A stretch of DNA of 64,000 nucleotides, from the IMG/VR virus record IMGVR_UViG_3300017917_001573, positions 30,972 to 94,971 of that record; one strand, written 5' to 3'. Shown piece by piece: positions 4,580 to 32,112 of this stretch; the first letter of the stretch is position 1; the number at the start of each line of letters is the position of its first letter. This stretch comes from a virus. The translations under genes were made by a program, and so were the position numbers. The notes below the pieces were generated by a model, which was given only the letters and a program-made list of their open reading frames with translations, did not search any database and was not told the DNA's origin.

Positions 4580-4593
4580 TAAATTAAACAACT

Positions 4594-10322: not shown

Positions 10323-13300
10323 ATGCCTACTACAACAGATATATCAAATATTATTACAGGTCAAAAACCTGTTTCTGTACAACTTGCAGAAATGCATTCT
10401 GATTTGTTAAACAATATCAGAGAAAATGTTATACCTATAACACCACAAGCATCAAGTAATTATGGATTAACACCAACTGCTGCACCACAACAAAAATCAT
10501 TTGCAGAAGTTGCAGCAGAAGTATTCAGTAATCCTATTAGAAACAGTACATTCGTTGCACCATATGAATATGCTAAAAAATATGATGATAAACAATTGGG
10601 ATTTAATGCTGCACGTTCTTTTGAAGACCAAGAAGATATGTATGCTGATAAATTGTATTCTAGTTTTGGTGGTGCATTGTTAGGTATTGGTAAAGGTGTT
10701 GCAAGTAGAGGTTTATCTATTATTCCTAAATTTTTAAGTTCCGCAGGTGTAATAGGTGGTTTTACAGCAGACATTTTTAGTGGGAATTTATACAACGGAA
10801 AATTAAATTACACCACTGATAACTTCTTTTTACATCTAATGGATGGTATAGATGAAGGATTAAGAGAAGTAATGCCTATATATGCAGACAAAGACTATTT
10901 TGAAGGTGGTTTACTTTCTAAAATGGGTACTATGAAATTTTGGGCAGATGACTTCTTTGATGGTGTAGCATTTGCTGTTTCTTCTTATGGTAACGTTGGT
11001 TTGCTAAATGCGGCAGGTAAACTTGGTAGATTAGGTAAACTTGGAAAAGCGGCAATGGCAGTAGAGGAAGGTGTTGATGCTTTATCAGATGCTGAACGTT
11101 TTGTACAAGGTAGTGAAACTATTAGAGAAGCTGCTACCTTGTCTGCTAAAGAAATGATGCAAGGTTTTACAAAAAACTACAAAGGTTTAGACATTAATTT
11201 TCTAGCATCAGATGCTGCAAAAGCTACTTTAAAAAACTGGGCTAAATCTGGTGGTTATGCTACATTTAATACTGTAACTGAAGCTGGAGCTGAAGCTAGA
11301 GACTTTAAAAAGCAATACAAACAACAATTAATTAACGAAGGTTTTTCTGAATCAGAAGCAAATGATATTGCATCAGAAAAAGCACTTAATGTATTCAACG
11401 GTAATATCATTGCTTTACTAGGCTCTAACATTATTGAGGTTAGAACAATGTTTCCATCTTTGTTTGGTACTACTGAAAATGCATTAGCAACAGCTAAACG
11501 AGCAATTGTTAATGGTGAAAAAGTAGCTACACAAAGTTTGGCTAAAACAATGCTAAAAGGTATTGGGTTGAATATTGCAGCAGAAGGCATGTATGAAGAA
11601 AACATTCAAACGTCTATACAACAATTTGAGAAATCTTCTTCCCCTGACAATACTTCATTTATGGATATGGCTACCAATTCTATAGCCACTATGCTAAATA
11701 ACATTGGTTATTTTGGATCAGCTCTAACAGGTTCATACAAAGACATGTCTGCTGATCAAAAAGAAGCAGTTGACTCAATTGTATTAGGTGCATTGATTGG
11801 TGGTTCTATGGGATCAAAAGGTTCTTATAGTGAACATAAATTATTAGAAAATCAAATCAAAACATTTGGTTCTCAATATGAAGGTTTAAAAAATAAACAA
11901 GCTGAAATCTTTTCTGTACTAGGAGAAGACTTGAAGAATATATACAAAAAACAAGTTGTTCAAAATCCAGATGGAACTACTACCGAAACATATCATGATG
12001 AGAATGGTAAATTAGTATTTGATGAAGACAAAATTGCAAAACTAGCATTCCTTAATATTGAAAATCAGAAGTTGGTAAATGAATACTTGTATCGCATTAC
12101 AAACAATGATAAAAAAGGTGCTGATATATTGTTAGATCAACTACATGCTAGATATGCATTTCAAACATTAACAAATCCTATTTGGGATGGGGATGCAGAT
12201 TTAGCATTGAAACATATGGAGAATTCATTGGATTCATTTGAAGACAAATCAAATCCATTGCTTGCTACATGGCAATCTAATAAAGAACGTATTAAAGAGT
12301 ATACAGAAATCTTTAAATCCATACAACAAGAACAACTCAATAAAAAGATTGATAATGTTGCAGACTTTCAATTTGCTAAGTTTGCTTTAGCATCTATGTT
12401 TTATGAAAAAACTAAACAATCTACATTATCAAGACAAGCAAATGAGTATAGAGAAGAACGTGCTGCATTAGATAACAAGTTTAAAGAACCTAAAGAGATT
12501 ATTGATGAAAATGGTAAGATTGTAGATAATCCTAACTATATAACTCCTACACAAGAGGAATCTTCAAAAATGTCTTATTTAAAAAATCAATTGTCTACAA
12601 TTCAATCTCTTGTAGATAGTTCAGAAAAGACTATAAACATGTTCAGAAGTGATTCTGAAAGAAAAGTTTTTTACAAAAGAATTTTCGAGAGACAATCTGA
12701 AATCAATGACTTATTTGACCAAAGCGATAAAGTAGATGAAGAGTTAAAAGAACTTGAAAAAGAGGTTAAAACAAAACAACAAGAACTCTCTGATTTAGAA
12801 AACAAAGAAGAACTTACTCCAGAAGAAGAAACTAAATTAAAAGAACTACAAGACGAAGTACAAAAACTATCTGATGATTATCAAAACAAATATGAATCAC
12901 ATGCTGCATTTGTTGCAGATTTTGAATCAAAACATAGATTTGAAGGTGATATGTGGTTGGTTAAAAACTTTGATATAAAGAAAGGTGATTATCGTTCTTT
13001 TTCTGAACAACTAAAAGATATTGATAATACACCATTACAATACAAACCTTATCTTGAAGCATATCAAGATATGAAGTTGTCTGTAGAATTTCACAAGATT
13101 GTAAATGACTATTTGGAAAAAGCTAATATTTCTGTATCTGAATTAATTTCTACTGTTAATAATTTTATTCAAAATAAAAAAGACATTAGTGAAGAAGATT
13201 TAGCTTTACTTGATTCTTTGTATCAGATGATCAAACGTAAAAACGCTGATGACAAACAAAACAACGTATTAGTAGATTTAAAAAATGTAGTTCTTACTCC

Positions 13301-15989
13301 ATACTATCATCCTAAAATATCTAATGTAGTAGGTTTGTCAGCAGAACTATTGTACAGTGATTTAGATGAAAATGAGGAAACTATTGAAGAAGTTACAAAA
13401 GAACCTGTAAGTGTATTTAAAGAATCATATGAAAATTATTTACAAACTGTAGAAAGTTCAAAAAATAAAATTGCCGATATTCAATCTTTAATTGAATTTG
13501 AAAAACTATTAAAGAAAATGAAATTAGATGGTGGTCCTGTTTCTTTAAATAAAGGTTTTGTTACAAGTAAACGTAATTGGGCATTAAACAAGCAATCCAT
13601 AGGATACTACAAAACATCGACTAATCCATCTGATTTTGAATCACCATCTATCTTGTTGATTGATACACTTGGTCCGTTAGCTAGATTCTTTTTTGAAAGA
13701 GGTTATATACTAAATCAATTAGCATTAGCTCAATCTAAGTTTGAAGCATATGATGCATTGTCTGATAAATCTATGTATACAGAAAGTCCTACTGCTCTAC
13801 AAAATTTGTATACTACATTAAAAGCTTGGCAAAAACTAATTAAAGAAAAAGATAGAAAAAATACTGGTTTTTTTGATGGTTTATCTGATAACATTGATCA
13901 AGCATTAAACAATGTAGATACTATGTTGGATGCTGCAATGAAATCTGGAGACAATAGAATTGCAATGCAGAATAAAATGTTTATGTTGAATTTACAACAA
14001 CATTTTATATCTATGGGTTTTGATTTAACATCTGGTACACTTAAAGCGCATGCTACTAGTCCGTTAAATCAGTTTTTAAATCATCCTAGAATTAAACCAC
14101 TTTGGGAAGATAAAGATGTTGCATCTTTGACAGAATATGATTTTGAAACTATTGCTGTTGGATTAAGAACTGTAATGACACCTACTGAAATAAATACTAT
14201 AACTCAGCAATTAATTACATCTAATAAACAAACATACAGTGTATTTAAAAGTGTAATTGGAGAAAGATCAACTGTATATCCATCTGATTATATTGGTTAT
14301 TTTATGTTGGAACTATTTAAAGTAGAATCAGATAGTATTGATAAATTTAAACAACATCAAAATCTACTAATTCTATTAGAAGATTTAAAATCAGATAGTA
14401 CATCCAAATTTACCATAAGAGGTAAAGATTATACTAAAGATGAAATCATTAATCTTGTAGAAAATTTACTAACACACAATTTAAATGAAACCGCTATCTT
14501 AAACTTGAATACTGATTTTGTATACAAGAATTATTTGACAAAGCTTGATAAATATGAAAAAACTCAATCTATTGGTCTATCATCAGAACAAAGAATGAGT
14601 CACATGATTTTTTCTAAGTATTTGTCAATGAAAATCAATTACAAACCATTGATGTTAAATGCTGTTGCTGGTTCTGGTAAAACATCTACCTTTAAATGGT
14701 TGTTTGCTACAAATGAAATTACAGCAGAAAATACTCAATTCTTTGCTACAACAGATACTTCTGTATCTAGTCTACAAAATTCATTGTCTGCAAATAATGT
14801 AACTGTAAAAAATATATCGACAATAGATCCAAAGGCTGATTATTCTAATACTAAACATCTAGTAGTAGATGAAATTGGTTTAATTAGTGACAGTAATACA
14901 ACTACTCTTAGAAAAATTGCAGAAAAAAATCCTCACTTAAAAATTATATTTTTAGGTGACAACAACCAACTTCCAAAAAATGCAATTCAAGTATCTCATT
15001 TGTTTTCATTCCAATTACTTTACAATACACCTTTGACACTATCTTTTAGAGCAAAGGTTACATCTATATCTGATGCATTCTCTAAATTTAAAAACAAATC
15101 TACTGTACCAGATACAGTAACATTGTCTGCATCTGGACCTATTGGAAAATCTGTATATGGTGTACATTCTGTAAATGGAAATGATTCTGTGCAATCTGCA
15201 AAATTTGATGAACAAATTCAAATTGAAGTAGACAACAATGCTGATATATTGATTATTACCTCTACCGATAAAATTGATTCATACAAAAAGAAATTTCCTT
15301 CTGCTACTGTTGTTACACCAATTGATGCACAATCTCTTTCTAAAGACAAAGTATTTATTGATGTATCCTATGCAGACTATACATCTGCAAGAACTGGTGT
15401 ACCATATTATGCACAAAGTACCCAAGAAGTTAAGAATACATTGTTCAATACATTGATGTACGTGGCAATTAGTCGTGGTTCTGAGTATGTGATGATCAAA
15501 GATTATGACAATAGATTTTCTAATACAGAAGATACGAATTTACAACAATCTGTAGCAGACTCTATTCAAAAATCAGAAATTGAAATACAAAAAAACAAAG
15601 TTCTATTTCAAGATTGGATTAAAGATGAATTAGCTAAATTTGGTGCAAAACCAACTGTGTCTAATACTACACAAACCCAACCTCAACCACAGACACAACC
15701 TCAAACAGAACCTACTACTGAAACTGAATCAGAAACTGAATCTCAAACTGAAAATGAAACTCAAAATAATTCAAATTTATTTGAAGATACATTATCTGAT
15801 ACAGAAAAAGATTTAGTATCAAGATACCCAGAAGTATATGCTATATTAAAATGGGTATATGATACAAAAGGTAGTGAACAAATGCCTGACACTATGTACA
15901 AAGAAATGCTATCTTTGGTGTATCAAAGACTAACTGATGAAGAATCTACTTTGATTCAATCATACATTAAAAAGCAATCTGAATGTTAA
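10323..15989 (+). CDS. Large virion cargo protein: N-terminal hydrophobic/Gly-rich helices, coiled coil, C-terminal superfamily-1 helicase domain
   Basis: Walker A AVAGSGKTS, Walker B VVDEIG, motif III FLGDNNQLP, motif V TPIDAQS, motif VI LMYVAISRG. N-terminal EAGAEAR and EGMYEENIQ segments resemble crAss ejection proteins. Confidence 0.75.
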   Translation: MPTTTDISNIITGQKPVSVQLAEMHSDLLNNIRENVIPITPQASSNYGLTPTAAPQQKSFAEVAAEVFSNPIRNSTFVAPYEYAKKYDDKQLGFNAARSFEDQEDMYADKLYSSFGGALLGIGKGVASRGLSIIPKFLSSAGVIGGFTADIFSGNLYNGKLNYTTDNFFLHLMDGIDEGLREVMPIYADKDYFEGGLLSKMGTMKFWADDFFDGVAFAVSSYGNVGLLNAAGKLGRLGKLGKAAMAVEEGVDALSDAERFVQGSETIREAATLSAKEMMQGFTKNYKGLDINFLASDAAKATLKNWAKSGGYATFNTVTEAGAEARDFKKQYKQQLINEGFSESEANDIASEKALNVFNGNIIALLGSNIIEVRTMFPSLFGTTENALATAKRAIVNGEKVATQSLAKTMLKGIGLNIAAEGMYEENIQTSIQQFEKSSSPDNTSFMDMATNSIATMLNNIGYFGSALTGSYKDMSADQKEAVDSIVLGALIGGSMGSKGSYSEHKLLENQIKTFGSQYEGLKNKQAEIFSVLGEDLKNIYKKQVVQNPDGTTTETYHDENGKLVFDEDKIAKLAFLNIENQKLVNEYLYRITNNDKKGADILLDQLHARYAFQTLTNPIWDGDADLALKHMENSLDSFEDKSNPLLATWQSNKERIKEYTEIFKSIQQEQLNKKIDNVADFQFAKFALASMFYEKTKQSTLSRQANEYREERAALDNKFKEPKEIIDENGKIVDNPNYITPTQEESSKMSYLKNQLSTIQSLVDSSEKTINMFRSDSERKVFYKRIFERQSEINDLFDQSDKVDEELKELEKEVKTKQQELSDLENKEELTPEEETKLKELQDEVQKLSDDYQNKYESHAAFVADFESKHRFEGDMWLVKNFDIKKGDYRSFSEQLKDIDNTPLQYKPYLEAYQDMKLSVEFHKIVNDYLEKANISVSELISTVNNFIQNKKDISEEDLALLDSLYQMIKRKNADDKQNNVLVDLKNVVLTPYYHPKISNVVGLSAELLYSDLDENEETIEEVTKEPVSVFKESYENYLQTVESSKNKIADIQSLIEFEKLLKKMKLDGGPVSLNKGFVTSKRNWALNKQSIGYYKTSTNPSDFESPSILLIDTLGPLARFFFERGYILNQLALAQSKFEAYDALSDKSMYTESPTALQNLYTTLKAWQKLIKEKDRKNTGFFDGLSDNIDQALNNVDTMLDAAMKSGDNRIAMQNKMFMLNLQQHFISMGFDLTSGTLKAHATSPLNQFLNHPRIKPLWEDKDVASLTEYDFETIAVGLRTVMTPTEINTITQQLITSNKQTYSVFKSVIGERSTVYPSDYIGYFMLELFKVESDSIDKFKQHQNLLILLEDLKSDSTSKFTIRGKDYTKDEIINLVENLLTHNLNETAILNLNTDFVYKNYLTKLDKYEKTQSIGLSSEQRMSHMIFSKYLSMKINYKPLMLNAVAGSGKTSTFKWLFATNEITAENTQFFATTDTSVSSLQNSLSANNVTVKNISTIDPKADYSNTKHLVVDEIGLISDSNTTTLRKIAEKNPHLKIIFLGDNNQLPKNAIQVSHLFSFQLLYNTPLTLSFRAKVTSISDAFSKFKNKSTVPDTVTLSASGPIGKSVYGVHSVNGNDSVQSAKFDEQIQIEVDNNADILIITSTDKIDSYKKKFPSATVVTPIDAQSLSKDKVFIDVSYADYTSARTGVPYYAQSTQEVKNTLFNTLMYVAISRGSEYVMIKDYDNRFSNTEDTNLQQSVADSIQKSEIEIQKNKVLFQDWIKDELAKFGAKPTVSNTTQTQPQPQTQPQTEPTTETESETESQTENETQNNSNLFEDTLSDTEKDLVSRYPEVYAILKWVYDTKGSEQMPDTMYKEMLSLVYQRLTDEESTLIQSYIKKQSEC
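15720..15767 (+). repeat. Four degenerate 12-bp tandem units in a low-complexity T/Q/P/E linker
   Basis: gaaactgaatca gaaactgaatct caaactgaaaat gaaactcaaaat (ETES ETES QTEN ETQN), preceded by TQPQPQTQPQ. Confidence 0.8.
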
Positions 15990-15990
15990 T

Positions 15991-18900
15991 ATGAATTGTT
16001 TTACTGAATTAGACAGACTAGTTGTTTCAATCCAAGTATCAAAAGACCTGAAAGTTAATTTTGGGTCTTTTGATGTTCATATGAAACACATTTATACTAC
16101 AAAACCATTACCTAAATCAGAAGGTTTAGAATACTACGAAAAGTATACAGAGTTATATAATTCTGTAGCATCTATGCTAGGTTTAGAATCTAGTTTAAAT
16201 GTAGATGATGTTGTAGATTGGTACAATAAAAAACATAATCCTGTTACAGGACAAGGTTTACAATTTCCTTCAAGAGAACACATTAGACGTTCTAAAGACC
16301 AAGATGAAGAAAATGTGGGTAAATTTAAAGAAGGTGATGAAGTATTTTTAATCAAAGATGCAAATGGGAAAGTTGCTTTAGTAGGTAATCCAACTGCGTC
16401 TTTGTATAATGTACTTGCTGTATTGTCAGATGATGAACTAACATTTCGATTCAAAGCATATACACCACTTACAGTATCTTCTAGTATACTAGAAAACAAG
16501 ATAAATATTGAAAATGTATTTAATGCTCCAAAAGCAAAAGTAACTTTAGCAGAACCTGTAAAAACAGTATATGGAAATAATATACAAAATATTGAACCAG
16601 ATCAAGTACAAGGTTCTTTAAATGCTATTGCTACAATGTTTGATGACTTAAATGACACTCAAGGAACTATTCCGTTACTAAGTATTGCAACACATTCTAA
16701 TACAGATGAAGACTTTTTATTGGGTAGACCTGTTGTAAAAATGCTCACATTAGATAATAATGGACATTATAAAATGGTTCCATTCCAAGTAGCATTGAAC
16801 AAAGCGGCATTGTCAACAGATTCTCCTGTATACAAGATGATGCAAACATTTTATGATAATGCTGTTATATTAAATAATGCTGGATTTCCAATGGGTTCTA
16901 TTGAATTTGAAACATTGATTAAAGATGTAGCAAAATCATTTGTAAATGGAGAAATTTTATCCCAAAAGAAAAATGTACTTGTTTCTAAGTATGGACAAAG
17001 TGTATTTGATTCAGCATTGCAACTTGTGCAATTAACACATGGTCAAGAAAAAACTAAATATAGAAGTACATCTCTTGTAGATTTTTATACTACAGTAGGA
17101 TTAAACGATAATCAAATACAAAAAAGAAAAGAACAACTTAAAAATCTGTTTGATGATTTTCAATTAACCGATGAACAAGTTGATCAAATTTTAAATTTGA
17201 ATGATTTACTTTCAGGTAAAGTATTTGAAATTGTATTTGGTATAAAGAATTCTGATTCACCTAGAACTCCAAAAACTAAAACTGTTGAAAAAGATGGTCA
17301 AACATATTTGTATACAGATTTGTTAGAACAATTCAGAAAAAATATTCAACCATTGTTATCAGTAGAAACATCTGCTGGTGGTAGATATGAATTAAATCGT
17401 GTTGGAGATAAACTTGAAGAAAAACAAAAGATCAAAGGTGTTAGAACACCGCGTACTATTTTTACAAATAGAAACACAATTACCAAATATGAAAACGGTA
17501 AAGTTGTAGAATCTTATTATAGTCCACCATTAATGAAAAATGGATATGGACCATTGCAAAAAGCTCTTAAACAACTTATTGCTGCAAACCAAGAATCTTT
17601 CTCTGGTACTTCAAAAACAGAAGGTACATATGTACATAACTTATTAAAACCTTTTTTTACAACAAGAGGTTCTAATGAAACAAAAGTATTTATTACAAAA
17701 GGTTTCTTTACATCAGATGACAATACTAAAAAACTTTATTTAAAAGGTATATTTAAAACATTACGTGCATTAAGCAAAGACTACAATACTAAAAAATACG
17801 ATGATTTAGAAGATATGTCTAACCTTGAAAGTTTAGTAGAAGAGTTGGATATTATCGGTTTAGCAGAAGAAGATTTAGAAATGTTGTCTAATAACTTTAG
17901 TACATTCTATAATACAGAAAGACGATTTGAATCATTAAAAGATTACATTGATGCAGAATTAGAACAAATTCAACAACGTATTGAAAATGATAAAATCAAT
18001 TTATCTGCATTGGGTAATTTCTTAGATCAATCACATATTAATCCATCTACAAAAAGATTTAAAAAAGATGGTGAAAAGAAAGGTTCTTTCATTCGTAGTA
18101 ATCCTAGATTAGCAGGTGAAATAAATGATACATTTGAAAAACAATATATTGATTTATTATCTTTAGCATATACATACCATACTAATCCTGAATTTAAATC
18201 TTTTATGGACAACAATCCTTTTTTAGAAACAGGTTTTAAATTAAAAGATGAAACACTTACTAATACTGATCTTTTAGATAAGATAAATAGCATGCACAAA
18301 GAAACTGTTATTTCAGAATTTGAAAAATTAGTATCTTCTAATATAGAAACATCTGGTGTAATTAGAATTGAAAATTCCAAAGTTGATATAGATTTTAATT
18401 CAAATAATACTGTAAAAGAAGAATCTGTGTTAGAAGAACCAGCTCCTTCTACACAAACAGCTCCTGTTTCTACAAATACTAAAGCTGATATAGAAAGGAG
18501 AAGACAAGAAAAGTATAATACTCAGTACAATAATTTAGTTTCTGGTAATGTATTAGATAATCAAGGAGACCCTGTTTTTGAAGAAGATAAAGGAATAGGA
18601 GCTAATGGTTTATTTACTTTAACAGAAAAAAAATATGGTCATGGTCACGTCAGAACTAGTGGGTTAAATTCTTTAAAGGTTCTTGAAGACTTATTAGAAG
18701 GTGCTGAGTTTTCAGGGTGGTTTGGAGAAATTGGAGAAGGACCACATTCAACATGGGAGACTGGAAACTTTATAATTGTCTCTAATAATATCTATCCGAT
18801 TAAAAACGGTAAATTAAACCTAAATGAGGTTGAGATAATATTAAATGCTGGATTAACTCCTTTTGCTCAAGAGCTTGCAAACAAGTATCCTAATGTAATT

Positions 18901-19191: not shown

Positions 19192-19194
19192 TTG

Positions 19195-19202
19195 TAACTT
19201 TG
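19195..19202 (+). promoter_or_regulatory. Bacteroidota sigma-A -7 box (TAnnTTTG) upstream of the RNAP gene
   Basis: TAACTTTG in the 31-bp intergenic gap before ATG 19223; no well-spaced -33 TTTG. Confidence 0.5.
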
Positions 19203-19222
19203 AAAAATATTAATATAACGAT

Positions 19223-25200: not shown

Positions 25201-27256
25201 TAATATGGCACTTGAAGTAAATACATTAATTGATGCTGTAGCTAAACCTAGAACAACAGTTGAGCAAGCAGAAAATCTAATTGATATATACAACAAATTG
25301 AATGATGAAAAAGGAACACTTCCAGAAGATTATTCTTTTATTGCACAATTAGAACCACATTTACAAGAACTACTTAAAGAACAAGAATCTACAACTGTTT
25401 CTAATACATACATTTTTGATATTCCAAATTTCTTTAAAGTAAACCCACATATCAAAGCTGCTGCAAAATCTGTTATTGCAGAATATGATTTTATGTCTAG
25501 AAACTTTCCATTCTATTCTTCTAAAATTAAACAGTTTATTATTGATAATCCAATACTAAGAAAAGTTAGACTTTCTGAAATTCAAACAGATGATAGAATG
25601 TTAAAAAGACAAGAGCTTATAAAATTTGTAATGTCTGCATTTTCTAAATCAAAACAAGTTAAACCTGTATACATCAATAAGACATTGTTTTCTGGTACAG
25701 ATGCTTTTTACAACATGAGTGCTAAACGTTTAAAAGCCGCTAAAGAAATACTAAAAGACAATTACTTTTTAAAAGTAATCAATCCTACTTCAAAAGGTAT
25801 TTTTAAATTAGAATCTAAATTAGCTGAATTGTACAACCAAAATGCAATTAAAGAATCTTTTGATGAATTGAGATACCTTAAAGAAGAAATTCAAATTATT
25901 CCATATGAAACAAGTATTCAATTAGAAAAAGAATTAGCTGATTACAATGTTACTGCTGAACTTAAAAAAACACTTATTGAGTATGCTAAAGAAAAAGGTG
26001 TATTGGAAACTGTAGACAATATGAACGATATTCAAGAAGGGTATAGAATATTGAATTATACATTTACAAAAATGGATACGTATCAAGAAAATTCATATGC
26101 TGATATTATTTTTGAACAAGTTCTTTTAGATGATGGTTTAACTAACACTTCTCAATCGTTGACTAGATATATTTCAGATGATATTATGATGAAGTATGCA
26201 AAGAATTTTACATCCTTGTTGTCTATAATGAACTCTGCAAACGTAGATCATATGTTGGAAGATTTTACATTAGAATTTATGGTTAAACATAAAAACTTAT
26301 ATACAAATCTTAATTTGAGATCATTAGAAAAAACAAAAACACAATATGTATACGATGATAGTAAGCATCCTAAAGCACTACAAGTACATAGTGGTATGCA
26401 TTCAGAATTGGGTTTTTATGATGCTAGTTTTCCAATAAAAGATAAAAATGATGTTAGACTTAATACAGCTAAAAAACTTATTGAGTATGATGGTGCTATT
26501 ATGAAATTAATTGGACAAGAAGGTGGAACATTGTATTATAGAAAAATTGCTACTTTACCAAAAGGAGAAAATAGAAAGATGTCTTATTCAATGAATGATA
26601 AAATGATTTCATATCAACGTTTGATTAACATGGCAGATGAATTATATCTATCCGCCAATGTTGATCCAGAAATGTTTGAGATAGAAGAAAAACTTGCTAA
26701 TTTATCAGACTATGTTAAAGAAGCTTTTGATACTAAACAAATTGATGAAACAAACAACTATTACAAAGCACTAAAGCATTTTGTACAAAATGTGGTTGGA
26801 ACTAAATTCTCAAACAAAGATACTGTATTAAACGTATTGAAAAGTGACATTAAGTATACACCAATTGATATTATTGAGTTTGCTAAAGATAAACCTATTA
26901 TTCCTGTAAAAGAGAATAAAACTACTATTAAAATAATTAGTACAGAACGACCTGACGATAAAACTAGTGTACAGTTGTTTAACCAATTACGTATTCAATC
27001 AAAAGATTTTACATTGTTTAGAGATCCTAACATTCAAGGTGGTTATTTAGTGACACATCTAATTAGCGATATTGGAATTAAAAACCCAACTCTTTACGAA
27101 TATCATATTACAGAATTGGATGTAAAAGGTGTAACTTTGGAATTGACTCCTGTTAATAGCACAACAGATACATTTAACTTTTCAAATATAGATAAAGTAA
27201 CTGATATGCTAAACGGAGACAAAGAAACTACAATTAAACCATCTTGTAAACTATAA
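19223..27256 (+). CDS. Virion-packaged single-chain two-barrel DNA-dependent RNA polymerase with N-terminal zincin domain
   Basis: Catalytic loop GSDFDVDSLF (DFDVD at 24245-24259), preceded by FRIPSTG; also KRRDSNGSP and PSDGQG motifs; HEVFH...EEMLAE zincin (19667-19681). Matches the crAss/phi14:2 gp66-type RNAP architecture. Confidence 0.9.
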   Translation: MSCKVKSIEQKYRDVAPNIANDLQDNYSQTLDLVKQSGLVTFVDGKFVTNKPNELQAYLSTYNKTVDIKDGVVYTNPLQSTMLEGGMLESEALKYAKSILPSLKNNELLFVTSLALNAKFHTDATGAYKNGLVYIASNNGVVGKSVIRHEVFHKIWNEYLSPAEKDSLFNYYNKDFKAKNLFEFEEMLAEKYQDYVSTKKHKSSVIKTIFNKILRFFGLITANTESISKFFDQVDSGVFSIQKDVADNTPRFMKKVVEKMGSVQRYEFGLELVKSFATEAFGKGFATSFVIDGKNKFLNIPSSDITNFRLYSKAVLNHIKTNPAFIQNSKLIGSVFDNPKFADFRELVLKDAKAGETNTVSQKDSLLDAVQKHFDELFADAFGIKPEKLNLTKEELEELENNLIEKDEEETGNLSQEIKDKTNIDGFENSSQRIKVFLSTINVLDNVLDKELDDESKVKYMNAKRVYAALVTAMQYTNKLAKNESFGTQLEKSIQNGRQGSDKKTLDAVLKKLAAIEKSIADRNKSNSSPLYFFNANEALIVNSIYTDTELSKKQKLTNKLYHFDFGMYDNLEIVDVSNDKLKDGQFVVKAYHIATNKIYYALCDGKVSKEPSEFNKAFVERVHKLLVEKKTPLVQKEKSLIESIVSDLTGTVNNDLYTSLTSHFYSIVERNIAFIKSKSEFEKKQILTDEDGEPIDIDIDDIDENTPVEKQRPIRTGKIIKSTGSADIPIQAAKFVNDLNAAILEPQNGLKNAEILLNALKTEYKESDKQAFSLYKAGVIAAFTNAKLKKSYADAYFKAIERKDANSFTKGDLIEFLTLVSKFDKNKGTLDQYINNDELSKKISTPANEIARSIVSGFDIPNAVSKTIGGKKQYKFVRSNTIMRNLKQLESYGNNRVYSKNDVNAENVLPAWASNTNNSYSVNPYVDPTTKSDFKITEHFLVGGDEYKNANGYVNTTPWANLTTKQRHIQVLQYAWGHGKFKEDAHHIFLPQQGDATTAYVAQVPLTFNTRLALERTLMMQAKKLTKEEQIEKLGYSLKKYNFNDIVDFELMDEAVKKVTSKIKNQTFTSMTERCRFLLDPANKNLLDELEKEFEKLILKEVDKEIQFIAQNKYHFTDNFFGNDVFATQVKNAKTPEEAANILSKDVDFLRVIKKILYSHSYNGYFINQYLNGDSETYGDAAGTLKRRDSNGSPKESMRISNGTAVNTTGARVKFRAAVVKDINIFGNLEDVAEKEEKEGKELDPNLKKWTSEMLLNELGFTKESDPDLFNEWEGDYKPSDGQGIHIKRRNNEIRRNYGTETNYGRILKPLINDRYTRNGFETPFIGKYSSILLDESVAKVSPIAKQIMDWMEKHNIDELLFDSAIKCGQMDSQYQIDLNDILNDTVPQSHMDSAIVELNNDAYGLQLDPISTATKVTYPSQLFYFPRITQDLKEFKTGVNPIDMYQYMADLIDFRKSVDDRKTKFGDKYNRTVLLNKIKGQLDAKNLMGNDLLQDLLNAFVKQKKGNIAFNLPVFSEFLENAILGGRYKNVVQTKFKGKKNVLVSSVLTNNYGYKFDENTESKIPNLKTYKNDKGEIVSQAVVPKGKYITKSDGKKVWKGLIPEEVQNKMIANQKAGKDILDGVTEQFILFGFRIPSTGIHSALPLEIVGFYDDKGTNGIIVPPDVVQKHGSDFDVDSLFTIALDEFQEDFKVGDTTYRKNTVVGENGSLEDMLKEYAEKPTSELEEYITKAYQNKIASEMKKIFVHKHNAHMMTTTINMQPYKDVIERLYGKKQKITDPSTINGMLKQVEVAMAGVTGTGISASALKFLGYIYEAGENGIPKFNPKVLETISFVSNGQTKVIDQVTIDRDAVKELDGLVNLNIDNIKELGLDALNLDTNTITLFIAMRMVGLDLNQSSKIMTSKLMRYLRDNNLKVNTDMLVTFGITEEAFSDKNIKLDLDALFDPKNKKLFNTDFNWSGSEYDYSEFTDAQKELTKQLLVFLYRMSQVSNMALEVNTLIDAVAKPRTTVEQAENLIDIYNKLNDEKGTLPEDYSFIAQLEPHLQELLKEQESTTVSNTYIFDIPNFFKVNPHIKAAAKSVIAEYDFMSRNFPFYSSKIKQFIIDNPILRKVRLSEIQTDDRMLKRQELIKFVMSAFSKSKQVKPVYINKTLFSGTDAFYNMSAKRLKAAKEILKDNYFLKVINPTSKGIFKLESKLAELYNQNAIKESFDELRYLKEEIQIIPYETSIQLEKELADYNVTAELKKTLIEYAKEKGVLETVDNMNDIQEGYRILNYTFTKMDTYQENSYADIIFEQVLLDDGLTNTSQSLTRYISDDIMMKYAKNFTSLLSIMNSANVDHMLEDFTLEFMVKHKNLYTNLNLRSLEKTKTQYVYDDSKHPKALQVHSGMHSELGFYDASFPIKDKNDVRLNTAKKLIEYDGAIMKLIGQEGGTLYYRKIATLPKGENRKMSYSMNDKMISYQRLINMADELYLSANVDPEMFEIEEKLANLSDYVKEAFDTKQIDETNNYYKALKHFVQNVVGTKFSNKDTVLNVLKSDIKYTPIDIIEFAKDKPIIPVKENKTTIKIISTERPDDKTSVQLFNQLRIQSKDFTLFRDPNIQGGYLVTHLISDIGIKNPTLYEYHITELDVKGVTLELTPVNSTTDTFNFSNIDKVTDMLNGDKETTIKPSCKL

Positions 27257-27261
27257 CAATT

Positions 27262-30200
27262 ATGTGTGGTACAGACGAAGCTAAAGAAAACCTTATTCTA
27301 CAGGTTCAAAAAATAATTCCAAACTTTAAACATTTAAATCCTGCTTTTAAACAAGAGCAGGATTTAATCATTGTTGATCAACGTAATCAATCCGAGTTGT
27401 ATGCTGCTATTGAAGCATCTAACACAACACTATTTCAATTAACCAATATTGAAAATATAATTGGTGAACCACGATTTCATAAACCTGGTAAAGTAGAATT
27501 ACCTTTAAATCTTACACCAAAAAATATTAGAAATAGGTACATTCAACTTGAACAACAAAGAGATCCTCAACTTTCAGATGAATTACAAGAAGCATACGAT
27601 TTAGCAAAAAAGGAATTTGCTGAAAAAGAATCATTCGATTATATCGTAGATGGTGATGTAAAACCTATTTATGATAATATGGAAAGTAAAACTGTTCAAT
27701 CAAGTATAAAAGTATTTCGACACTTGTCCATTAAAGAAGGTTCTACACTTGAACCATTACCATTTACAGATAGATTGGCTTCTATATTTGGTGATAGAAA
27801 GAAAATGAGTGTTAAAGAAATTATTAATGAAATGATTCAAAACACCAAAGTAAATGATGCACATGGTTATCACAATATCATGTACAACTTCATTTCAAAT
27901 CACATTGGTGATTTTGATGTATACATCAAACCCTTAAAGAAAACTGTTCGAGGACAATATGTATACAGTATGTCTGGTGAAAGAATTGAACTAAATATAG
28001 ATGGTGTAAACGAACGTGTTTTTCTACATGAACTTATGCATGCTGCTACTGCAAGAATTCTTAGAGTATATGAATCAAATCCTGAACAGTTAACAGCTGA
28101 TCAAAAGAATGCTATTTCTGAACTACAAACTATTTTCTCTGAACTATTGGAACAAAAACCATCTTTGGGTAAACAATATGGTTTTACTAACTTAGATGAA
28201 TTTATTGCAGAATTCTTTTCAAATGATTCATTTAGAGAATCAGTTGGAAATATGAAGTTATCTAAATCTTATAAAATTAGATACAAACTTGCAGAACTAA
28301 TTGGTAGACTATTGGGTTTCTTAAATTTTGAACCATATACTAAAAAAGTAGGAGTTGTTGTTATTGATAGAGTATTGATGTTGGCACAAGGTAATTCTGC
28401 ATACAATACAGATGTAGAAGTAGAACTTCAATCTATTTCTCAAAATGAAGAATGGGATATACCATTGGATCAAAATGGAAAACAAGAAGATTTCTACGAA
28501 AACTCTAATACTAAAGAACGTAGAAAGCGTATTACTTCTGCAAACAATGGTTTGTTAAATCTAATGGCTAACAAGACCAATACAGAAGATTATTTAGTAT
28601 CCATCAACTATACAGAAGATGAAATAAAAAATAATGTTGAAAAAGTAACTACACGTTTTCCTAATAAAAAACTTACACCTACTGCATTTAGAGAAGAACT
28701 TAAAAAGTTTTCCAAAATAGATCAGTTGCAAGGTAGTATTAGAGAGTTATTGATTCAATTTGATATTACTAAACAACAAGAACTAAAAGATAAAGCAGAC
28801 AGACTAATTGAAGAATTACAACAATTAGATCCAGAAAAAGTGGTAGACATGTCTTTTTTAAATAGAGGTAGTGAATTTAACGTTCTGGATGAACTATACA
28901 AAAAAATAGGATATACTGGTCAACGTACAGATGTTCCTGCTGAAAAAAGAAACAATATGAATTTTGGTGTAAAAGTTACATCAAAAACATTAGGTTATAT
29001 GGGTACACTTGACTTTGTTATTGATAAACCAGATGGTTCAGTTTCATTTATAGAAATGAAAACAGGTAACTCTTTTCTTAAAGAAAAATCATTTGTATCT
29101 CTTTATTTACATGGTATTGCAGAAGGTGTTCCTATCAGTAATTTGAACAATGCTCAACTACAATTGATGTGGTATATGTTTTTGTACAAGCTACAAAATC
29201 CTAGTAAAACAATTTCAAGTGGTAAAATATTGTATGCTAATAGTGGAAAAACAATTGAATCTAGTGATGCTGTATTTGAATTAGAAAATGATGTATTTAT
29301 CAAATTGATTCATAATTTCTTATTAGATACTAAATTCTTAACCGACAATGGTTTTCCACAAGATTTGTATGAAAAATTGGAACAAGAATATATTGCAAAT
29401 GGTGGTAAATCATTTGATGAATTGTTCATGCCTCAAACATACTACAATGATAGTCCTGAAATTGATTTAAATACTTCAACATTATCAGCAGATGATATTA
29501 TTGAACAAAGTGAAAAAGATATTCTATATAATTCAAAAGGTCTACCATTATCGAAAGGTTCCGAAACTATATATAAAGAACAAAAAGAAACACTTGCTAA
29601 TAAAGCTCTTGTAGTATTGAGAAGATATTCTTCTGAGGCATTGGATTATTCTAGTGCTAATTCTCCATTTAGATTGTTGTATCAAATGAATGATTGGAAC
29701 CAATCTACACTTCAAGCCTTTTCTTTGTATACAGAAAAGAATAGACAATTATATAGTAAAGAATTAACTGAACGTTTGACTACTGTTGAGAATTTTAGAA
29801 AGAAAATCTTTGGTAGTAATATGAAAGGTTTTGTATGGAATTCTAAAAAAACATATGGTCATTTATTTACGGAACATGTTGTATTAGATAGTGAAGGTAA
29901 TGAATTGAGAAAAGAAAAACGTTTATTGCATGCAAATGAAACTGATCCTGAAAATAAAGCTAGATGGAATAGTTTATCACCACAAGAAAAAGAATTCTTA
30001 GATTACTATCATAGACGAATGAAATATTATTATCATCCTGAAACAGGTTTGTTTGCACAAAAGAATATCAATGATATTACAATGTCTAAACAAAACATTT
30101 CTGATATTGATGTAATAAATAAAACAGTTCGTTCAACAGACCCTTTTGTATACTACGAAGGTTGGTATCCTAAAGTAGTTTTAAAGGATACGAATGAAAT

Positions 30201-32112
30201 TTCTGAAAACCTAAACATGCAAGGTGCTAAAGAAAAAATCAAATCTATTGCAAAAGATATTCGTAACAAATTTCTATTAACAGAAAAGAAATCTGAAGTA
30301 GCTTCTCAACCATTGGCATTGTTGTATCTAGGTTCACCATATGCTCTAAATAATCTAAGTGATATTTATTCAGTGGATCCATTTTATGCACTTTCTGAAT
30401 TGGAAAATGCTAACTTGTATAAGAAACACATGGAAAAAGTGTTTCACGTAGGTAGAGCATTAACACTAGGTTTTTCTGAAAATACACATACAGATAGATA
30501 TGGATTGGCTACTAAAACATCAGAAGATATTTCAAGATGGTTAAAAGATTGGTTAGATGTAAATGTTTTAAAACTTCGATCTAAAACAGAATTGTCTAGT
30601 CCAATTAACTTTGCTAAAAATAAAAAAGAAGAAGATGGTTCTACTAAACAAAAACAATATGAAGTAAATGTATCAGGTCTTGTAAATACTACAACATCTC
30701 TTTCAGCAAATGCATTGATGACATTTCGTATATTTGGTGCAGTAGGTAACTTTACTACTTCTCAAATGCTAAACTTTAGAAAACGTATTAGCAACCAAGT
30801 TTTAAAATCATTGGGTACAGATGAATCATACTTAGATTATTCTTTTGGTAAAGGTCAAGGATATTTCAAGTCAAATTCTAAAACAGTAGCTTATCTCAAA
30901 GATTCTATAACAGGTAACTTAGAGAATAATACTATGCATCATTTAGCATTGCTTTGCAATATTCCAGTTGCATTTGATGTATCTGAGAAAATGGATAACC
31001 TTGTAAAAAGTAAAAAGTCATCTATTACAAGTATTTGGGACAAAGCAAAATATTCTATGTTGAATGCATCTGAAAATGCAAACACTGTACATATGTTTAG
31101 TGCATACTTACATAACATCAAAGTTAATGGTACACCTATCATAAACTATTATGATATGTTTGAACAAACAGAAGATGGTCAGTTAGCAGATACAGAACAC
31201 AATAGAACATTACTACAACAAAAGATTCAAGAATTTGGTAAAGAAAATGTAGATATTACATTGGTTCCAGGTACAGCAACAGGCAAAGTTGCAACATACT
31301 TTGGACCTATCAGGTTTAAACAAAAAATATCTTCTGGTGGTGCTACATCTTATATAGATGTTAGAGGTTTAACTACAGAAGAAATTGCAAAAGCTAAAGC
31401 TATTTATGACAGAGCGCATGGTGAATACCGTGATAAAATGGCTATGGAAGTAAATGGTCTTGCTACTATGTTTACTATGTTGCATAGATTCTTCCCTCGT
31501 ATTCTAAAAAACATTTTTGAACAACGTAAATCACTCGCTTCAATGGGTAGATATGAAACTGTATATGATGAACTTTTACAACAAGATGTAAAAGTATGGG
31601 TCAATGGTACAGTTGAAGGTTCTCTTAGAATGTTTGTAAGTTTATTGATGATGTTTGGTACAAATGGTGGAATTAATGGTGTTAAGAAATATTGGAATAC
31701 ACTAGACATTGAACAAAAGAAACATTTAATGGGAGCATTGGTTGGTGTTGCTCAATGGATTGCTGCATATGGAATTTATGTTTTAGCATTCTCTGATGAT
31801 GATGATGATAACTATATTAAAAAATGGTTTAAGCGTTATACAGTAGATAACCCACTTCAAGATATTAACCCTAACTCTTTGTTAGAATCAGCTAAATCAG
31901 TAACTGTTCCAGTACCAGTAGATATTCTACATAGATTTACATCTGGTTCTACAGAAATTATGTTTGCTACAGGAAACTATTTAATTGGTAATGATGAAGA
32001 AGCTTTTACTCAACGTGGTGATTTAAGAGGTTGGAACAACTTTAAGAAAACACTTCCTAATGCATCTTGGGCATTTGACTTAGTAGATAAATTAGAAACT
32101 ATTGGTGAATAA
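27262..32112 (+). CDS. Large virion cargo protein with zincin metallopeptidase, PD-(D/E)xK nuclease-like domain and C-terminal hydrophobic helix
   Basis: VFLHELMHA...NLDEFIAE; GTLDFVIDKPDGSVSFIEMKTG...QLMWY; LMGALVGVAQWIAAYGIYVLAF followed by SDDDDD. Confidence 0.75.
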   Translation: MCGTDEAKENLILQVQKIIPNFKHLNPAFKQEQDLIIVDQRNQSELYAAIEASNTTLFQLTNIENIIGEPRFHKPGKVELPLNLTPKNIRNRYIQLEQQRDPQLSDELQEAYDLAKKEFAEKESFDYIVDGDVKPIYDNMESKTVQSSIKVFRHLSIKEGSTLEPLPFTDRLASIFGDRKKMSVKEIINEMIQNTKVNDAHGYHNIMYNFISNHIGDFDVYIKPLKKTVRGQYVYSMSGERIELNIDGVNERVFLHELMHAATARILRVYESNPEQLTADQKNAISELQTIFSELLEQKPSLGKQYGFTNLDEFIAEFFSNDSFRESVGNMKLSKSYKIRYKLAELIGRLLGFLNFEPYTKKVGVVVIDRVLMLAQGNSAYNTDVEVELQSISQNEEWDIPLDQNGKQEDFYENSNTKERRKRITSANNGLLNLMANKTNTEDYLVSINYTEDEIKNNVEKVTTRFPNKKLTPTAFREELKKFSKIDQLQGSIRELLIQFDITKQQELKDKADRLIEELQQLDPEKVVDMSFLNRGSEFNVLDELYKKIGYTGQRTDVPAEKRNNMNFGVKVTSKTLGYMGTLDFVIDKPDGSVSFIEMKTGNSFLKEKSFVSLYLHGIAEGVPISNLNNAQLQLMWYMFLYKLQNPSKTISSGKILYANSGKTIESSDAVFELENDVFIKLIHNFLLDTKFLTDNGFPQDLYEKLEQEYIANGGKSFDELFMPQTYYNDSPEIDLNTSTLSADDIIEQSEKDILYNSKGLPLSKGSETIYKEQKETLANKALVVLRRYSSEALDYSSANSPFRLLYQMNDWNQSTLQAFSLYTEKNRQLYSKELTERLTTVENFRKKIFGSNMKGFVWNSKKTYGHLFTEHVVLDSEGNELRKEKRLLHANETDPENKARWNSLSPQEKEFLDYYHRRMKYYYHPETGLFAQKNINDITMSKQNISDIDVINKTVRSTDPFVYYEGWYPKVVLKDTNEISENLNMQGAKEKIKSIAKDIRNKFLLTEKKSEVASQPLALLYLGSPYALNNLSDIYSVDPFYALSELENANLYKKHMEKVFHVGRALTLGFSENTHTDRYGLATKTSEDISRWLKDWLDVNVLKLRSKTELSSPINFAKNKKEEDGSTKQKQYEVNVSGLVNTTTSLSANALMTFRIFGAVGNFTTSQMLNFRKRISNQVLKSLGTDESYLDYSFGKGQGYFKSNSKTVAYLKDSITGNLENNTMHHLALLCNIPVAFDVSEKMDNLVKSKKSSITSIWDKAKYSMLNASENANTVHMFSAYLHNIKVNGTPIINYYDMFEQTEDGQLADTEHNRTLLQQKIQEFGKENVDITLVPGTATGKVATYFGPIRFKQKISSGGATSYIDVRGLTTEEIAKAKAIYDRAHGEYRDKMAMEVNGLATMFTMLHRFFPRILKNIFEQRKSLASMGRYETVYDELLQQDVKVWVNGTVEGSLRMFVSLLMMFGTNGGINGVKKYWNTLDIEQKKHLMGALVGVAQWIAAYGIYVLAFSDDDDDNYIKKWFKRYTVDNPLQDINPNSLLESAKSVTVPVPVDILHRFTSGSTEIMFATGNYLIGNDEEAFTQRGDLRGWNNFKKTLPNASWAFDLVDKLETIGE

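What the first reader, a model, noticed from the sequence alone, without database searches (positions are those of the whole stretch)
10323..32112. Cysteines at every junction of four giant ejection proteins: a candidate head-to-tail disulfide-linked RNAP delivery chain
Seen (manual count): the 1888, 1066, 2677 and 1616-aa proteins have only 1, 2, 5 and 2 Cys, 10 in 7247 aa. Six of these lie within 6 residues of a terminus, and only at internal junctions: ...QSEC* (15984) / MNC (15997); ...DPCDGFGF* (19171) / MSC (19229); ...PSCKL* (27245) / MC (27265). The two outer ends (N-terminus of the first protein, C-terminus of the last) have no Cys, and those regions carry the hydrophobic, membrane-like helices. 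Known: crAss-like phages package and eject these RNAP-associated proteins. Inference: the separately translated proteins are linked C-to-N in gene order by disulfides (or shared metal sites) into one chain of about 7,200 aa. That chain could be threaded through the tail in order and released in the reducing cytoplasm. I do not know of a description of this, but could not check the literature.
Basis: partly seen in the sequence, partly recalled or inferred. Interest (0 to 1): 0.92.

Follow-up and report, generated by a model that had tools for sequence, protein, structure and literature searches.

The report
Cysteine-tipped junctions chain split crAss polymerase
Four giant proteins of this crAss-like phage are the pieces of one huge particle-borne RNA polymerase protein, and almost their only cysteines sit at the ends that face the next piece; relatives show such a pair at nearly every break and none where the protein is whole, which points to untested end-to-end disulfide links.

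Summary
The 1888, 1066, 2677 and 1616-aa proteins hold 10 Cys in 7247 aa. Six of them sit 0-5 residues from the six inner termini, and the two outer ends have none (chance about 2e-12).

The 2677-aa protein is the crAss-type virion RNA polymerase (DFDxD motif; profile match to PDB 6VR4). In other phages, at least three of the four pieces map onto parts of one 6,000-6,700-aa chain with 0-6 Cys and none at its ends.

In 80 related loci, 43 of 44 distinct junctions inside the polymerase block carry Cys on both sides. The split state changes at least 12 times on the tree, and the C-terminal Cys follows it (sign test p about 0.005). phi14:2 and crAss001, whose virion proteins are known, show the same pattern.

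One published cryo-EM structure, of cyanophage A4, shows this same sequence signature as a real disulfide (gp27 Cys1715 to gp26 Cys5).

The head-to-tail link is therefore strongly supported by comparison. The bond itself, ordered threading and reductive release remain untested.

This scan has already noted the same pattern on at least 41 other genomes. I found no paper describing it for Crassvirales. The claim of membrane-like helices at both outer ends holds only for the C-terminal end.

The parts
10323..15989 (+). Piece 1 (1888 aa). It is the N-terminal module of the polymerase block. Its single Cys is the last residue (codon 15984-15986, ...KKQSEC*).
   Evidence: It maps to about residues 1-1662 of the fused 6105-aa protein of L014.
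14652..14975 (+). SF1 helicase-like P-loop domain in piece 1 (residues 1444-1551).
   Evidence: Pfam AAA_30 1e-12, AAA_19 and Viral_helicase1.
15991..19191 (+). Piece 2 (1066 aa), with Cys3 (15997-15999, MNC...) and Cys1061 (19171-19173, ...DPCDGFGF*) and no other Cys. It is a lineage-specific middle piece.
   Evidence: It has no detectable counterpart in the fused forms, so it is placed by position only.
18448..18990 (+). The only conserved part of piece 2 (about residues 820-1000). This domain lies at varied positions inside other 1.3-2.6k aa proteins and also stands alone as 177-202-aa proteins.
19223..27256 (+). Piece 3 (2677 aa), the crAss-type virion RNA polymerase. It has Cys3 (19229-19231, MSC...), Cys2675 (27245-27247, ...PSCKL*) and three inner Cys (604, 1076, 1369).
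24245..24259 (+). DFDVD catalytic motif of the polymerase (residues 1675-1679).
   Evidence: Invariant in alignments A1 and A3. The profile matches PDB 6VR4 at E 4.7e-97.
19667..19681 (+). HExxH motif (residues 149-153) shortly after the N-terminal Cys of piece 3.
   Evidence: The same motif lies just after split site B in all 12 fused giants.
27262..32112 (+). Piece 4 (1616 aa), the C-terminal module. It has Cys2 (27265-27267, MC...), one inner Cys (1232) and no Cys at its C-terminus.
   Evidence: It maps to about residues 4538-6096 of the fused reference. Cys2 is an invariant column of A2.
28027..28041 (+). HExxH motif (residues 256-260) of piece 4, Zincin-like. Piece 4 occupies the position that gp65 holds in phi14:2.
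   Evidence: Drobysheva et al. report the Zincin-like domain in gp65.
31735..31791 (+). The only transmembrane-like segment in the four proteins (piece 4, residues 1492-1510).
7716..10319 (+). Context: an 867-aa Cys-free protein just upstream. Nearly all related loci have a Cys-free 580-880-aa protein at this place. It has no terminal Cys, so it lies outside the proposed chain.

Best explanation
The four genes encode the pieces of the crAss-type virion RNA polymerase 'polyprotein'. In many relatives this is one Cys-free chain of 6,000-6,700 aa. In this phage it is broken three times, and each break has a Cys within a few residues of both new ends.

Proposed mechanism, with each step marked:
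- The C-terminal tail of piece n docks on the N-terminal module of piece n+1 (inferred).
- Once the particle is closed off from cytoplasmic reductants, or released, the two thiols form an inter-protein disulfide (inferred; shown only for the analogous pair in cyanophage A4).
- The pieces then behave as one covalently continuous thread of about 7,200 aa while stored and while extruded through portal and tail.
- The links open in the reducing host cytoplasm and free the polymerase and its partners (inferred).

What is shown:
- The identity of the polymerase.
- The correspondence of pieces 1, 3 and 4 to parts of one fused chain.
- The near-perfect rule that a Cys pair appears where the chain is broken, and not where it is whole.
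For: 1. Window: 6 of 10 Cys lie at the six inner ends and none at the outer ends, P about 2e-12.

2. Piece 3 is the crAss polymerase. DFDxD is invariant, and the profile hits 6VR4 (phi14:2 gp66) at E 4.7e-97.

3. Pieces 1, 3 and 4 map in order onto single 6,045-6,679-aa proteins of 12 loci. These hold 0-6 Cys each and none at their ends.

4. Survey of 80 loci from IMG/VR:
- ORFs of 1000 aa or more have 0.061% Cys, yet 50% have a Cys in the first 7 residues and 42% in the last 7. For 100-499-aa ORFs the figures are 6-7%.
- After removing duplicates, 43 junctions between neighbours of 1000 aa or more have Cys on both sides. One has its upstream Cys 14 residues from the end. The only junction with none lies outside the block.

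5. Among polymerase-bearing proteins:
- 30 of 30 that are broken after the polymerase module end in Cys.
- 24 of 29 that continue past that site do not. The five that do lie in clades where a Cys-started next piece is seen (L080, L081); for L067, L074 and L076 the locus ends before the next gene.
- An N-terminal Cys is seen in 0 of 21 proteins fused upstream, against 13 of 16 split upstream.

6. Tree of the polymerase core: the split state changes at least 12 times. In 10 independent pairs the Cys goes the same way in 8-9 and the opposite way in 0, sign test p 0.004-0.008.

7. Cultured phages with virion proteomics:
- phi14:2: gp67 (single Cys, last residue), gp66 (only Cys3 and Cys2179), gp65 (single Cys3).
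- crAss001: gp47 (single Cys2339 of 2341), gp50 (Cys5 and Cys2404, plus Cys1334), gp49 (single Cys5). Here gp47 lies on the other strand, so protein order matters rather than gene adjacency.

8. Precedent: the A4 cryo-EM structure shows a disulfide from gp27 Cys1715 to gp26 Cys5 on a docked C-terminal helix (PMC12002296). gp27 has a single Cys, 2 residues from its end, and gp26 has a single Cys5. Three relatives at about 25% identity keep both.

9. crAss001 virions do contain inter-subunit disulfides, in the gp57 dimer at the portal vertex and between tail hub and ring proteins (PMC10172136).

10. Lys is enriched 2.2-fold in the 8 residues before the C-terminal Cys. That fits a reactive thiolate.
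Against: - No direct observation of the bond in any crAss-like virion. The crAss001 atlas did not resolve these proteins and does not mention cysteines.
- Recombinant phi14:2 gp66 is active alone, so the link is not needed for catalysis (established knowledge from Drobysheva et al.).
- Drobysheva et al. suggest that fused forms are cleaved into components. If that happens before packaging, a covalent link would not be generally required.
- Exceptions exist:
  - L029 has a 1136|354 break without Cys, possibly a frameshift in the assembly.
  - In IAS virus, gp055 ends in Cys but gp056 has no N-terminal Cys; that record has ambiguous bases there.
  - In L035 and L039 the partner Cys lies 60-70 residues from the end.
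- Piece 2 cannot be mapped on the fused forms by sequence.
- Disulfides cannot form in the reducing cytoplasm during assembly. Non-covalent docking must therefore come first, and it alone might suffice.
Confidence: 0.62

Rival explanations
1. The ends dock on each other without any covalent bond. The two Cys serve the interface in another way, for example by jointly holding a metal ion, or by acting as a 'cysteine switch' on the Zincin-like HExxH domain that follows two of the junctions.
For: HExxH motifs lie 149 and 256 residues after the N-terminal Cys of pieces 3 and 4. In all 12 fused giants exactly two HExxH motifs lie just after split sites B and A. Conserved N-terminal modules follow the Cys and recur at different split sites. 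Compared with its fused sister, one split form has about 100 extra residues at the downstream N-terminus.
Against: There is only one Cys per end and no conserved His or second Cys nearby, so a normal four-ligand site is not available. Many Cys-started pieces have no HExxH at all, including piece 2 of this window. The A4 pair with the same signature is a disulfide in the structure.
Confidence: 0.15
2. Each terminal Cys bonds to something other than the neighbouring piece. Candidates are another copy of the same protein or a third virion part such as the portal, a capsid inner protein or another cargo protein.
For: crAss001 virions use disulfides elsewhere, including a gp57 dimer at the portal vertex. 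The model of about 6 copies of each polymerase-associated protein per virion would allow homotypic links.
Against: This does not explain why a C-terminal Cys on one piece almost always comes with an N-terminal Cys on the next (43 of 44 junctions). It also does not explain why fused forms need no Cys at all. The upstream Cys-free cargo proteins offer no partner.
Confidence: 0.08
3. The Cys are a footprint of how the gene was split, for example a mobile cassette or the remains of an intein (intein Cys1 and extein Cys+1), and have no present function.
For: Some junctions hold an inserted gene: ferritin-like ORFs in L001, L051 and L063, and a 644-658-aa ORF in L035 and L039. The same N-terminal module families occur at different split sites.
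Against: These proteins purge Cys almost completely (0.03-0.06%). A useless Cys would not persist across lineages with 20-30% identity and at least 11 changes of state on the tree. There is no Hint/intein domain, and the Cys sit 0-5 residues from the ends, which leaves no room for intein halves. Junction DNA is an ordinary TAA-n-ATG coupling with no shared element.
Confidence: 0.03

Closest known systems
Cyanopodophage A4 (Anabaena phage A-4L) pre-ejectosome: gp27 Cys1715 to gp26 Cys5 disulfide (PNAS 2025, PMC12002296)
   Same: - Two consecutive, large, otherwise Cys-free internal or ejection proteins are involved.
- The upstream one has its only Cys 2 residues from the C-terminus, and the next gene's product has its only Cys at position 5.
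- The structure shows the C-terminal helix docked in the next protein and locked by a disulfide.
- The signature is conserved in Pf-WMP3, Pf-WMP4 and TR020.
   Different: - There is no detectable sequence similarity to the window's proteins.
- A4 has a single link, not three in a row, and no RNA polymerase is involved.
- The paper treats the bond as a local stabiliser. It does not present it as a rule tied to gene fission or as a chain.
crAss-like virion RNA polymerase block: phi14:2 gp67-gp66-gp65 and crAss001 gp47-gp50-gp49
   Same: - Homologous polymerase: profile match to 6VR4 at E 4.7e-97.
- Same position after the muzzle-like and cargo genes.
- Same junction-only Cys pattern.
- These proteins are found in virions by mass spectrometry.
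   Different: - This window has four pieces instead of three, with an extra lineage-specific 1066-aa piece and a helicase-like domain in piece 1.
- It is very divergent: there are no PHROG hits, and tblastn identity to gut crAss polymerases is 26-47% over short stretches.
- The papers I could search describe fusion and splitting of these genes but say nothing on cysteines.
Cysteine suppression in ejected virion proteins of N4-like phages (Schitoviridae; N4 gp50, DEV gp71-gp73)
   Same: Giant virion RNA polymerase and ejection proteins with nearly no Cys, explained by passage through the oxidising periplasm (PMC11445570).
   Different: There the polymerase is one unbroken protein and has no terminal Cys. 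Here the interior is equally depleted, but Cys are kept exactly at the breaks.

Membership tests
crAss-type virion RNA polymerase (phi14:2 gp66 family) | Catalytic DFDxD motif in a conserved core | tested here: met
   DFDVD at residues 1675-1679 of the 2677-aa protein, invariant in 27 and 20-sequence alignments.
crAss-type virion RNA polymerase (phi14:2 gp66 family) | Sequence homology to the solved enzyme | tested here: met
   The profile of the core (window sequence first) hits PDB 6VR4 at E 4.7e-97 over 853 profile positions. The single sequence alone gave no PDB hit.
crAss-type virion RNA polymerase (phi14:2 gp66 family) | Giant gene(s) at the end of the structural block, flanked by module genes that are fused to it in some phages | tested here: met
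   The gene order is: muzzle-like virion protein, cargo-like proteins, then the four giants. Pieces 1, 3 and 4 map in order on fused 6.0-6.7k aa proteins.
crAss-type virion RNA polymerase (phi14:2 gp66 family) | Protein present in the virion and delivered to the host | not testable with these tools
   Known only for phi14:2 and crAss001 by mass spectrometry.
A4-type end-to-end disulfide between consecutive internal or ejection proteins | Upstream protein with a Cys within a few residues of its C-terminus, next protein with a Cys within the first about 6 residues, both otherwise Cys-poor | tested here: met
   All three junctions of the window meet this. It was compared with A4 gp27 and gp26 read from NC_024358.
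A4-type end-to-end disulfide between consecutive internal or ejection proteins | The pair is conserved in relatives and tied to the presence of a break | tested here: met
A4-type end-to-end disulfide between consecutive internal or ejection proteins | An S-S bond seen in the virion | not testable with these tools
A4-type end-to-end disulfide between consecutive internal or ejection proteins | Sequence homology to A4 gp27 and gp26 | tested here: not met
   blastp and phmmer gave nothing significant; the best hit was E 0.84, to the upstream 1040-aa protein. The likeness is in the signature, not in ancestry that can be detected.
Split inteins (protein trans-splicing) | An N-intein of tens of residues after Cys1 at the upstream C-terminus, and a C-intein before Cys+1 at the downstream N-terminus (Hint fold) | tested here: not met
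   The Cys lie 0-5 residues from the ends, and Pfam finds no Hint domain.

The most novel reading that the evidence does not exclude
The joints of the giant crAss polymerase protein are conditional links.

- In fused phages the joint is a peptide bond placed just before a Zincin-like domain that may cut it.
- In split phages the joint is a docked tail locked by a disulfide.
- In both cases the whole 6-7k aa assembly is packed and extruded as one thread and comes apart only inside the host.

This window would then carry the longest such chain in this survey: four proteins and three disulfides. The ferritin-like genes that sit exactly in some junctions of relatives might supply the oxidant.
Probability: 0.3. 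Interest if true: 0.85.

Novelty: new variant of a known kind. Interest (0 to 1): 0.74.

Why it matters
Crassvirales are the most abundant phages of the human gut, and how they deliver several megadaltons of protein before their DNA is an open question. The crAss001 atlas states that the order of extrusion is probably set by packing and by interactions among cargo proteins, but it could not resolve them.

A simple sequence rule addresses this directly: a Cys pair wherever the polymerase protein is broken, and none where it is whole. It gives a concrete, cheap test in the two cultured systems, using non-reducing gels, disulfide mapping and Cys-to-Ser mutants.

The rule would also:
- Show that gene fission can be tolerated by replacing a peptide bond with a disulfide.
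- Extend a single structural observation in a cyanophage to a general principle of protein ejection.
- Help annotation, since a giant Cys-free ORF ending in Cys predicts a partner starting with Cys, even across strand inversions.

Tried and rejected
Contexts came from the search for related loci and the phage collection instead.
No co-fold was made, and nothing can be said from that.

**Searches that gave little**
- PHROGs gave no hit for any of the four giants.
- Pfam gave only a helicase-like domain in piece 1.
- phmmer of the polymerase alone against PDB gave nothing. The profile was needed.
- Piece 2 could not be mapped on fused forms by jackhmmer. An exhaustive search found only its 180-residue domain elsewhere.
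- Residue-level alignment of junctions between sister fused and split forms failed because the linkers are not conserved.

**Ideas rejected**
- The intein idea, because of the position of the Cys and the lack of a Hint domain.
- The 'cysteine switch' as a general explanation, because many Cys-started pieces lack HExxH.
- A shared DNA element at junctions. They show only ordinary TAA-n-ATG coupling.

**Other negative checks**
- I looked for CxxC motifs of the thioredoxin or oxidase type among the window's ORFs and saw nothing suggestive. Only 64 of about 95 kb is in the window.
- Apparent exceptions in the first count were start-codon miscalls (L010, L068) or small genes inserted in the junction (L001, L051, L063).
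- Loci L013, L037 and L064 are fragmented, perhaps because they use another genetic code. They were left out of the final junction count.
Full report
**1. The observation**

The plus strand of the window holds a run of very large genes.

| ORF | Length | Cys positions |
|---|---|---|
| 10323-15989 | 1888 aa | 1888 (the last residue) |
| 15991-19191 | 1066 aa | 3, 1061 |
| 19223-27256 | 2677 aa | 3, 604, 1076, 1369, 2675 |
| 27262-32112 | 1616 aa | 2, 1232 |

All six near-terminal Cys lie at the three inner junctions (QSEC*/MNC, DPCDGFGF*/MSC, PSCKL*/MC). The two outer ends have none.

The four proteins hold 0.138% Cys, against 1.47% in the minus-strand replication genes of the same window. The binomial chance of six or more of ten Cys falling in the 33 near-terminal positions is 1.8e-12.

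The one detail that does not hold fully is the membrane-like helices at both outer ends. A transmembrane-like segment exists at residues 1492-1510 of the last protein. The N-terminal part of the first protein has nothing comparable.

**2. What the proteins are**

The window is a divergent crAss-like phage. Upstream lie:
- A muzzle-like virion protein (PHROG 37948).
- A 1040-aa protein with a cell-wall peptidase domain.
- An 867-aa Cys-free protein.

Downstream, on the other strand, lie DNA polymerase, helicases, rII-like genes and an aerobic ribonucleotide reductase.

The four giants have no PHROG hit. Only a helicase-like P-loop domain is found, in the first.

The 2677-aa protein has weak tblastn hits to the annotated RNA polymerase of IAS virus and to other gut crAss phages. 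It carries an invariant DFDVD motif in an alignment with 26 homologs. A profile of its core matches the solved phi14:2 gp66 polymerase (PDB 6VR4) at E 4.7e-97. It is the crAss-type virion RNA polymerase.

**3. The four pieces and the fused chain of other phages**

A scan of IMG/VR with the polymerase alignment returned 80 loci. In twelve of them the whole block is a single protein of 6,045-6,679 aa.

Mapping by BLAST on one of these (L014, 6105 aa) gives the following:
- Piece 1 falls at about residues 1-1662.
- Piece 3 falls at 2219-4712.
- Piece 4 falls at 4538-6096.

Piece 2 has no detectable counterpart. It is placed only by position, in the variable stretch between pieces 1 and 3.

Fusion and splitting of these genes are known (Drobysheva et al.).

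The common split sites lie about 100-250 residues before two HExxH motifs. These motifs are present, exactly twice, in every fused giant. Pieces 3 and 4 of the window carry them at residues 149 and 256.

**4. The rule**

Across the 80 loci plus the window:

| ORF size | Cys content | Cys in first 7 residues | Cys in last 7 residues |
|---|---|---|---|
| 1000 aa or more | 0.061% | 50% | 42% |
| 100-499 aa | 1.1% | 6% | 7% |

Gene-by-gene diagrams show three cases:
- Single fused giants have no terminal Cys and mostly 0-1 Cys in all.
- Two-piece forms have Cys on both sides of the one junction.
- Three-piece forms have Cys on both sides of both junctions and none at the outer ends.

I then corrected two start-codon miscalls, removed duplicates and set aside three fragmented loci. 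Of the junctions between same-strand neighbours of 1000 aa or more:
- 43 distinct junctions have Cys on both sides.
- One has its upstream Cys 14 residues from the end.
- The only one with none is the window's 1458|1040 junction, outside the polymerase block.

The N-terminal Cys sits at position 3 or 4 in 38 of 44 cases. The C-terminal Cys is followed by 0-2 residues in 41 of 43.

Sorted by the polymerase-bearing protein:
- All 30 proteins that end shortly after the polymerase module end in Cys.
- 24 of 29 that continue past that site do not.
- Two of the five that do (L080, L081) are followed by a Cys-started 1270-aa piece. For the other three (L067, L074, L076) the locus ends before the next gene.
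- No protein that is fused upstream has an N-terminal Cys (0 of 21). 13 of 16 that are split upstream do.

**5. Independence**

A tree of the polymerase core (58 rows) needs at least 12 changes of the split state and at least 11 of the C-terminal Cys.

In ten independent contrasts on well-supported branches, the Cys changed in the same direction in 8-9 and never in the opposite direction (sign test p 0.004-0.008). Sister pairs such as L025 (fused, no Cys) and L048 (4846|1563, Cys on both sides) show how fast the pair appears or disappears.

Homologs found in the large protein collections repeat the pattern:
- Many proteins of over 4,000 residues have a single Cys, at position 3 or 4.
- Relatives of pieces 2 and 4 keep their terminal Cys.

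In the closest relative in IMG/VR (L001) the gene borders differ. The ends still read ...KKCN* and MSC....

**6. Cultured phages**

In phi14:2 (virion proteomics noted in the record):
- gp67 (1797 aa) has one Cys, its last residue.
- gp66, the polymerase, has only Cys3 and Cys2179.
- gp65 has only Cys3.

In crAss001:
- gp47 has one Cys, 2 residues from its end.
- gp50 has Cys5, Cys1334 and Cys2404.
- gp49 has only Cys5.

Here gp47 is encoded on the opposite strand. The pattern therefore follows protein order in the fused chain, not gene adjacency. IAS virus and cr271_1 also fit, with one irregular junction in IAS where the record has ambiguous bases.

**7. What the Cys most likely do**

A single Cys on each side, with no conserved His or second Cys, fits a disulfide better than a metal site.

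A published cryo-EM structure gives a direct precedent (PMC12002296). [quoted passage not shown]

I read the genes from NC_024358:
- gp27 is 1717 aa with that single Cys.
- gp26, the next gene, has a single Cys at position 5.

Three relatives at about 25% identity keep both. There is no detectable homology between these proteins and the window's, so the likeness is one of design.

crAss001 virions contain other inter-subunit disulfides, including one at the inner portal vertex. Oxidised cysteines are therefore normal in these particles.

Cys depletion of ejected proteins is itself known for N4-like phages. That makes the retained terminal Cys all the more telling.

**8. Docking**

The residues after the N-terminal Cys form a few conserved module families, for example C-P-N-K-[NS]-[ST]-x-x-[WY]-K-x-L-V. 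These recur at different split sites.

One split form has about 100 extra residues at the downstream N-terminus compared with its fused sister. Lys is enriched before the C-terminal Cys.

Since a disulfide cannot form in the reducing cytoplasm during assembly, a non-covalent dock probably comes first and the bond locks it later. This is inference.

**9. Rivals**

- A metal bridge or a cysteine switch on the Zincin-like domain is not general, because many Cys-started pieces lack HExxH.
- Bonds to a third partner or to a second copy do not explain the pairing rule or the Cys-free fused forms.
- A neutral footprint of the fission event is unlikely, given the extreme purge of Cys elsewhere and the repeated changes of state on the tree.
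- An intein origin fails on the position of the Cys and the lack of a Hint domain.

**10. Novelty**

I found no paper that describes terminal Cys in the crAss polymerase block. The crAss001 atlas and the phi14:2 polymerase paper do not mention cysteines in these proteins.

The A4 bond is a published example of the same kind of link. I therefore class this as a new variant of a known kind: several links in a row, tied to gene fission of a polymerase polyprotein.

This scan has already noted the same pattern on at least 41 other genomes, and earlier follow-ups reached the same reading and the same precedent. I re-tested both the rule and the precedent here. What this window adds is a four-piece chain with three junctions and an extra, lineage-specific piece.

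**11. Limits**

- No structure prediction of a junction was possible.
- The bond, the order of extrusion and the release by reduction all need bench work.

Noticed in passing
L001:5439-5915, L051:8776-9264, L063:14058-14549: In three related loci a 158-163-aa ferritin-like gene (Pfam PF00210, E 1e-12 to 1e-17) sits exactly between the Cys-ended and the Cys-started giant. No other ORF in the 80 loci matches it. A di-iron protein at a junction that may need oxidation is curious; its role is unknown.
   Followed up: partly
window 19667-19681 and 28027-28041; all 12 fused giants in L005-L034: Every fused 6.0-6.7k aa protein has exactly two HExxH motifs. The two common split sites lie about 100-250 residues before them, so breaks fall at the N-terminal borders of two Zincin-like domains. 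This fits the published guess that fused forms are cut at these joints.
   Followed up: partly
window 18448-18990 (piece 2, residues about 820-1000): This is the only conserved part of the 1066-aa protein. The same domain of about 180 residues lies at very different positions inside 1.3-2.6k aa proteins of relatives, and it stands alone as 177-202-aa proteins. It looks like a mobile domain cassette. Another note of this scan (e1-6041757) saw direct repeats around it.
   Followed up: partly
L035:10839-12773 and L039:4635-6611: A 644-658-aa gene with a CxxC pair, and a weak YkuD (L,D-transpeptidase) match in L039, is inserted before a Cys-started giant. There the partner Cys lies 60-70 residues from the upstream C-terminus instead of at the end.
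   Followed up: partly
window 4594-7716: The 1040-aa protein upstream of the chain has a cell-wall peptidase match (PHROG 2307, residues 288-357). Its only two Cys form a CVNC pair at 532-535. It is probably an ejected wall-degrading cargo protein.
   Followed up: no
L013, L037, L064: The polymerase block is broken into many short ORFs under table 11. This could be stop-codon reassignment, which is known in some crAss-like phages, or poor assembly. These loci were left out of the junction count.
   Followed up: no
L029 (1136|354 junction, overlap of 14 bases): This is the one break inside the block without any Cys on either side. It may be a frameshift error in the assembly rather than a real gene border.
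   Followed up: no
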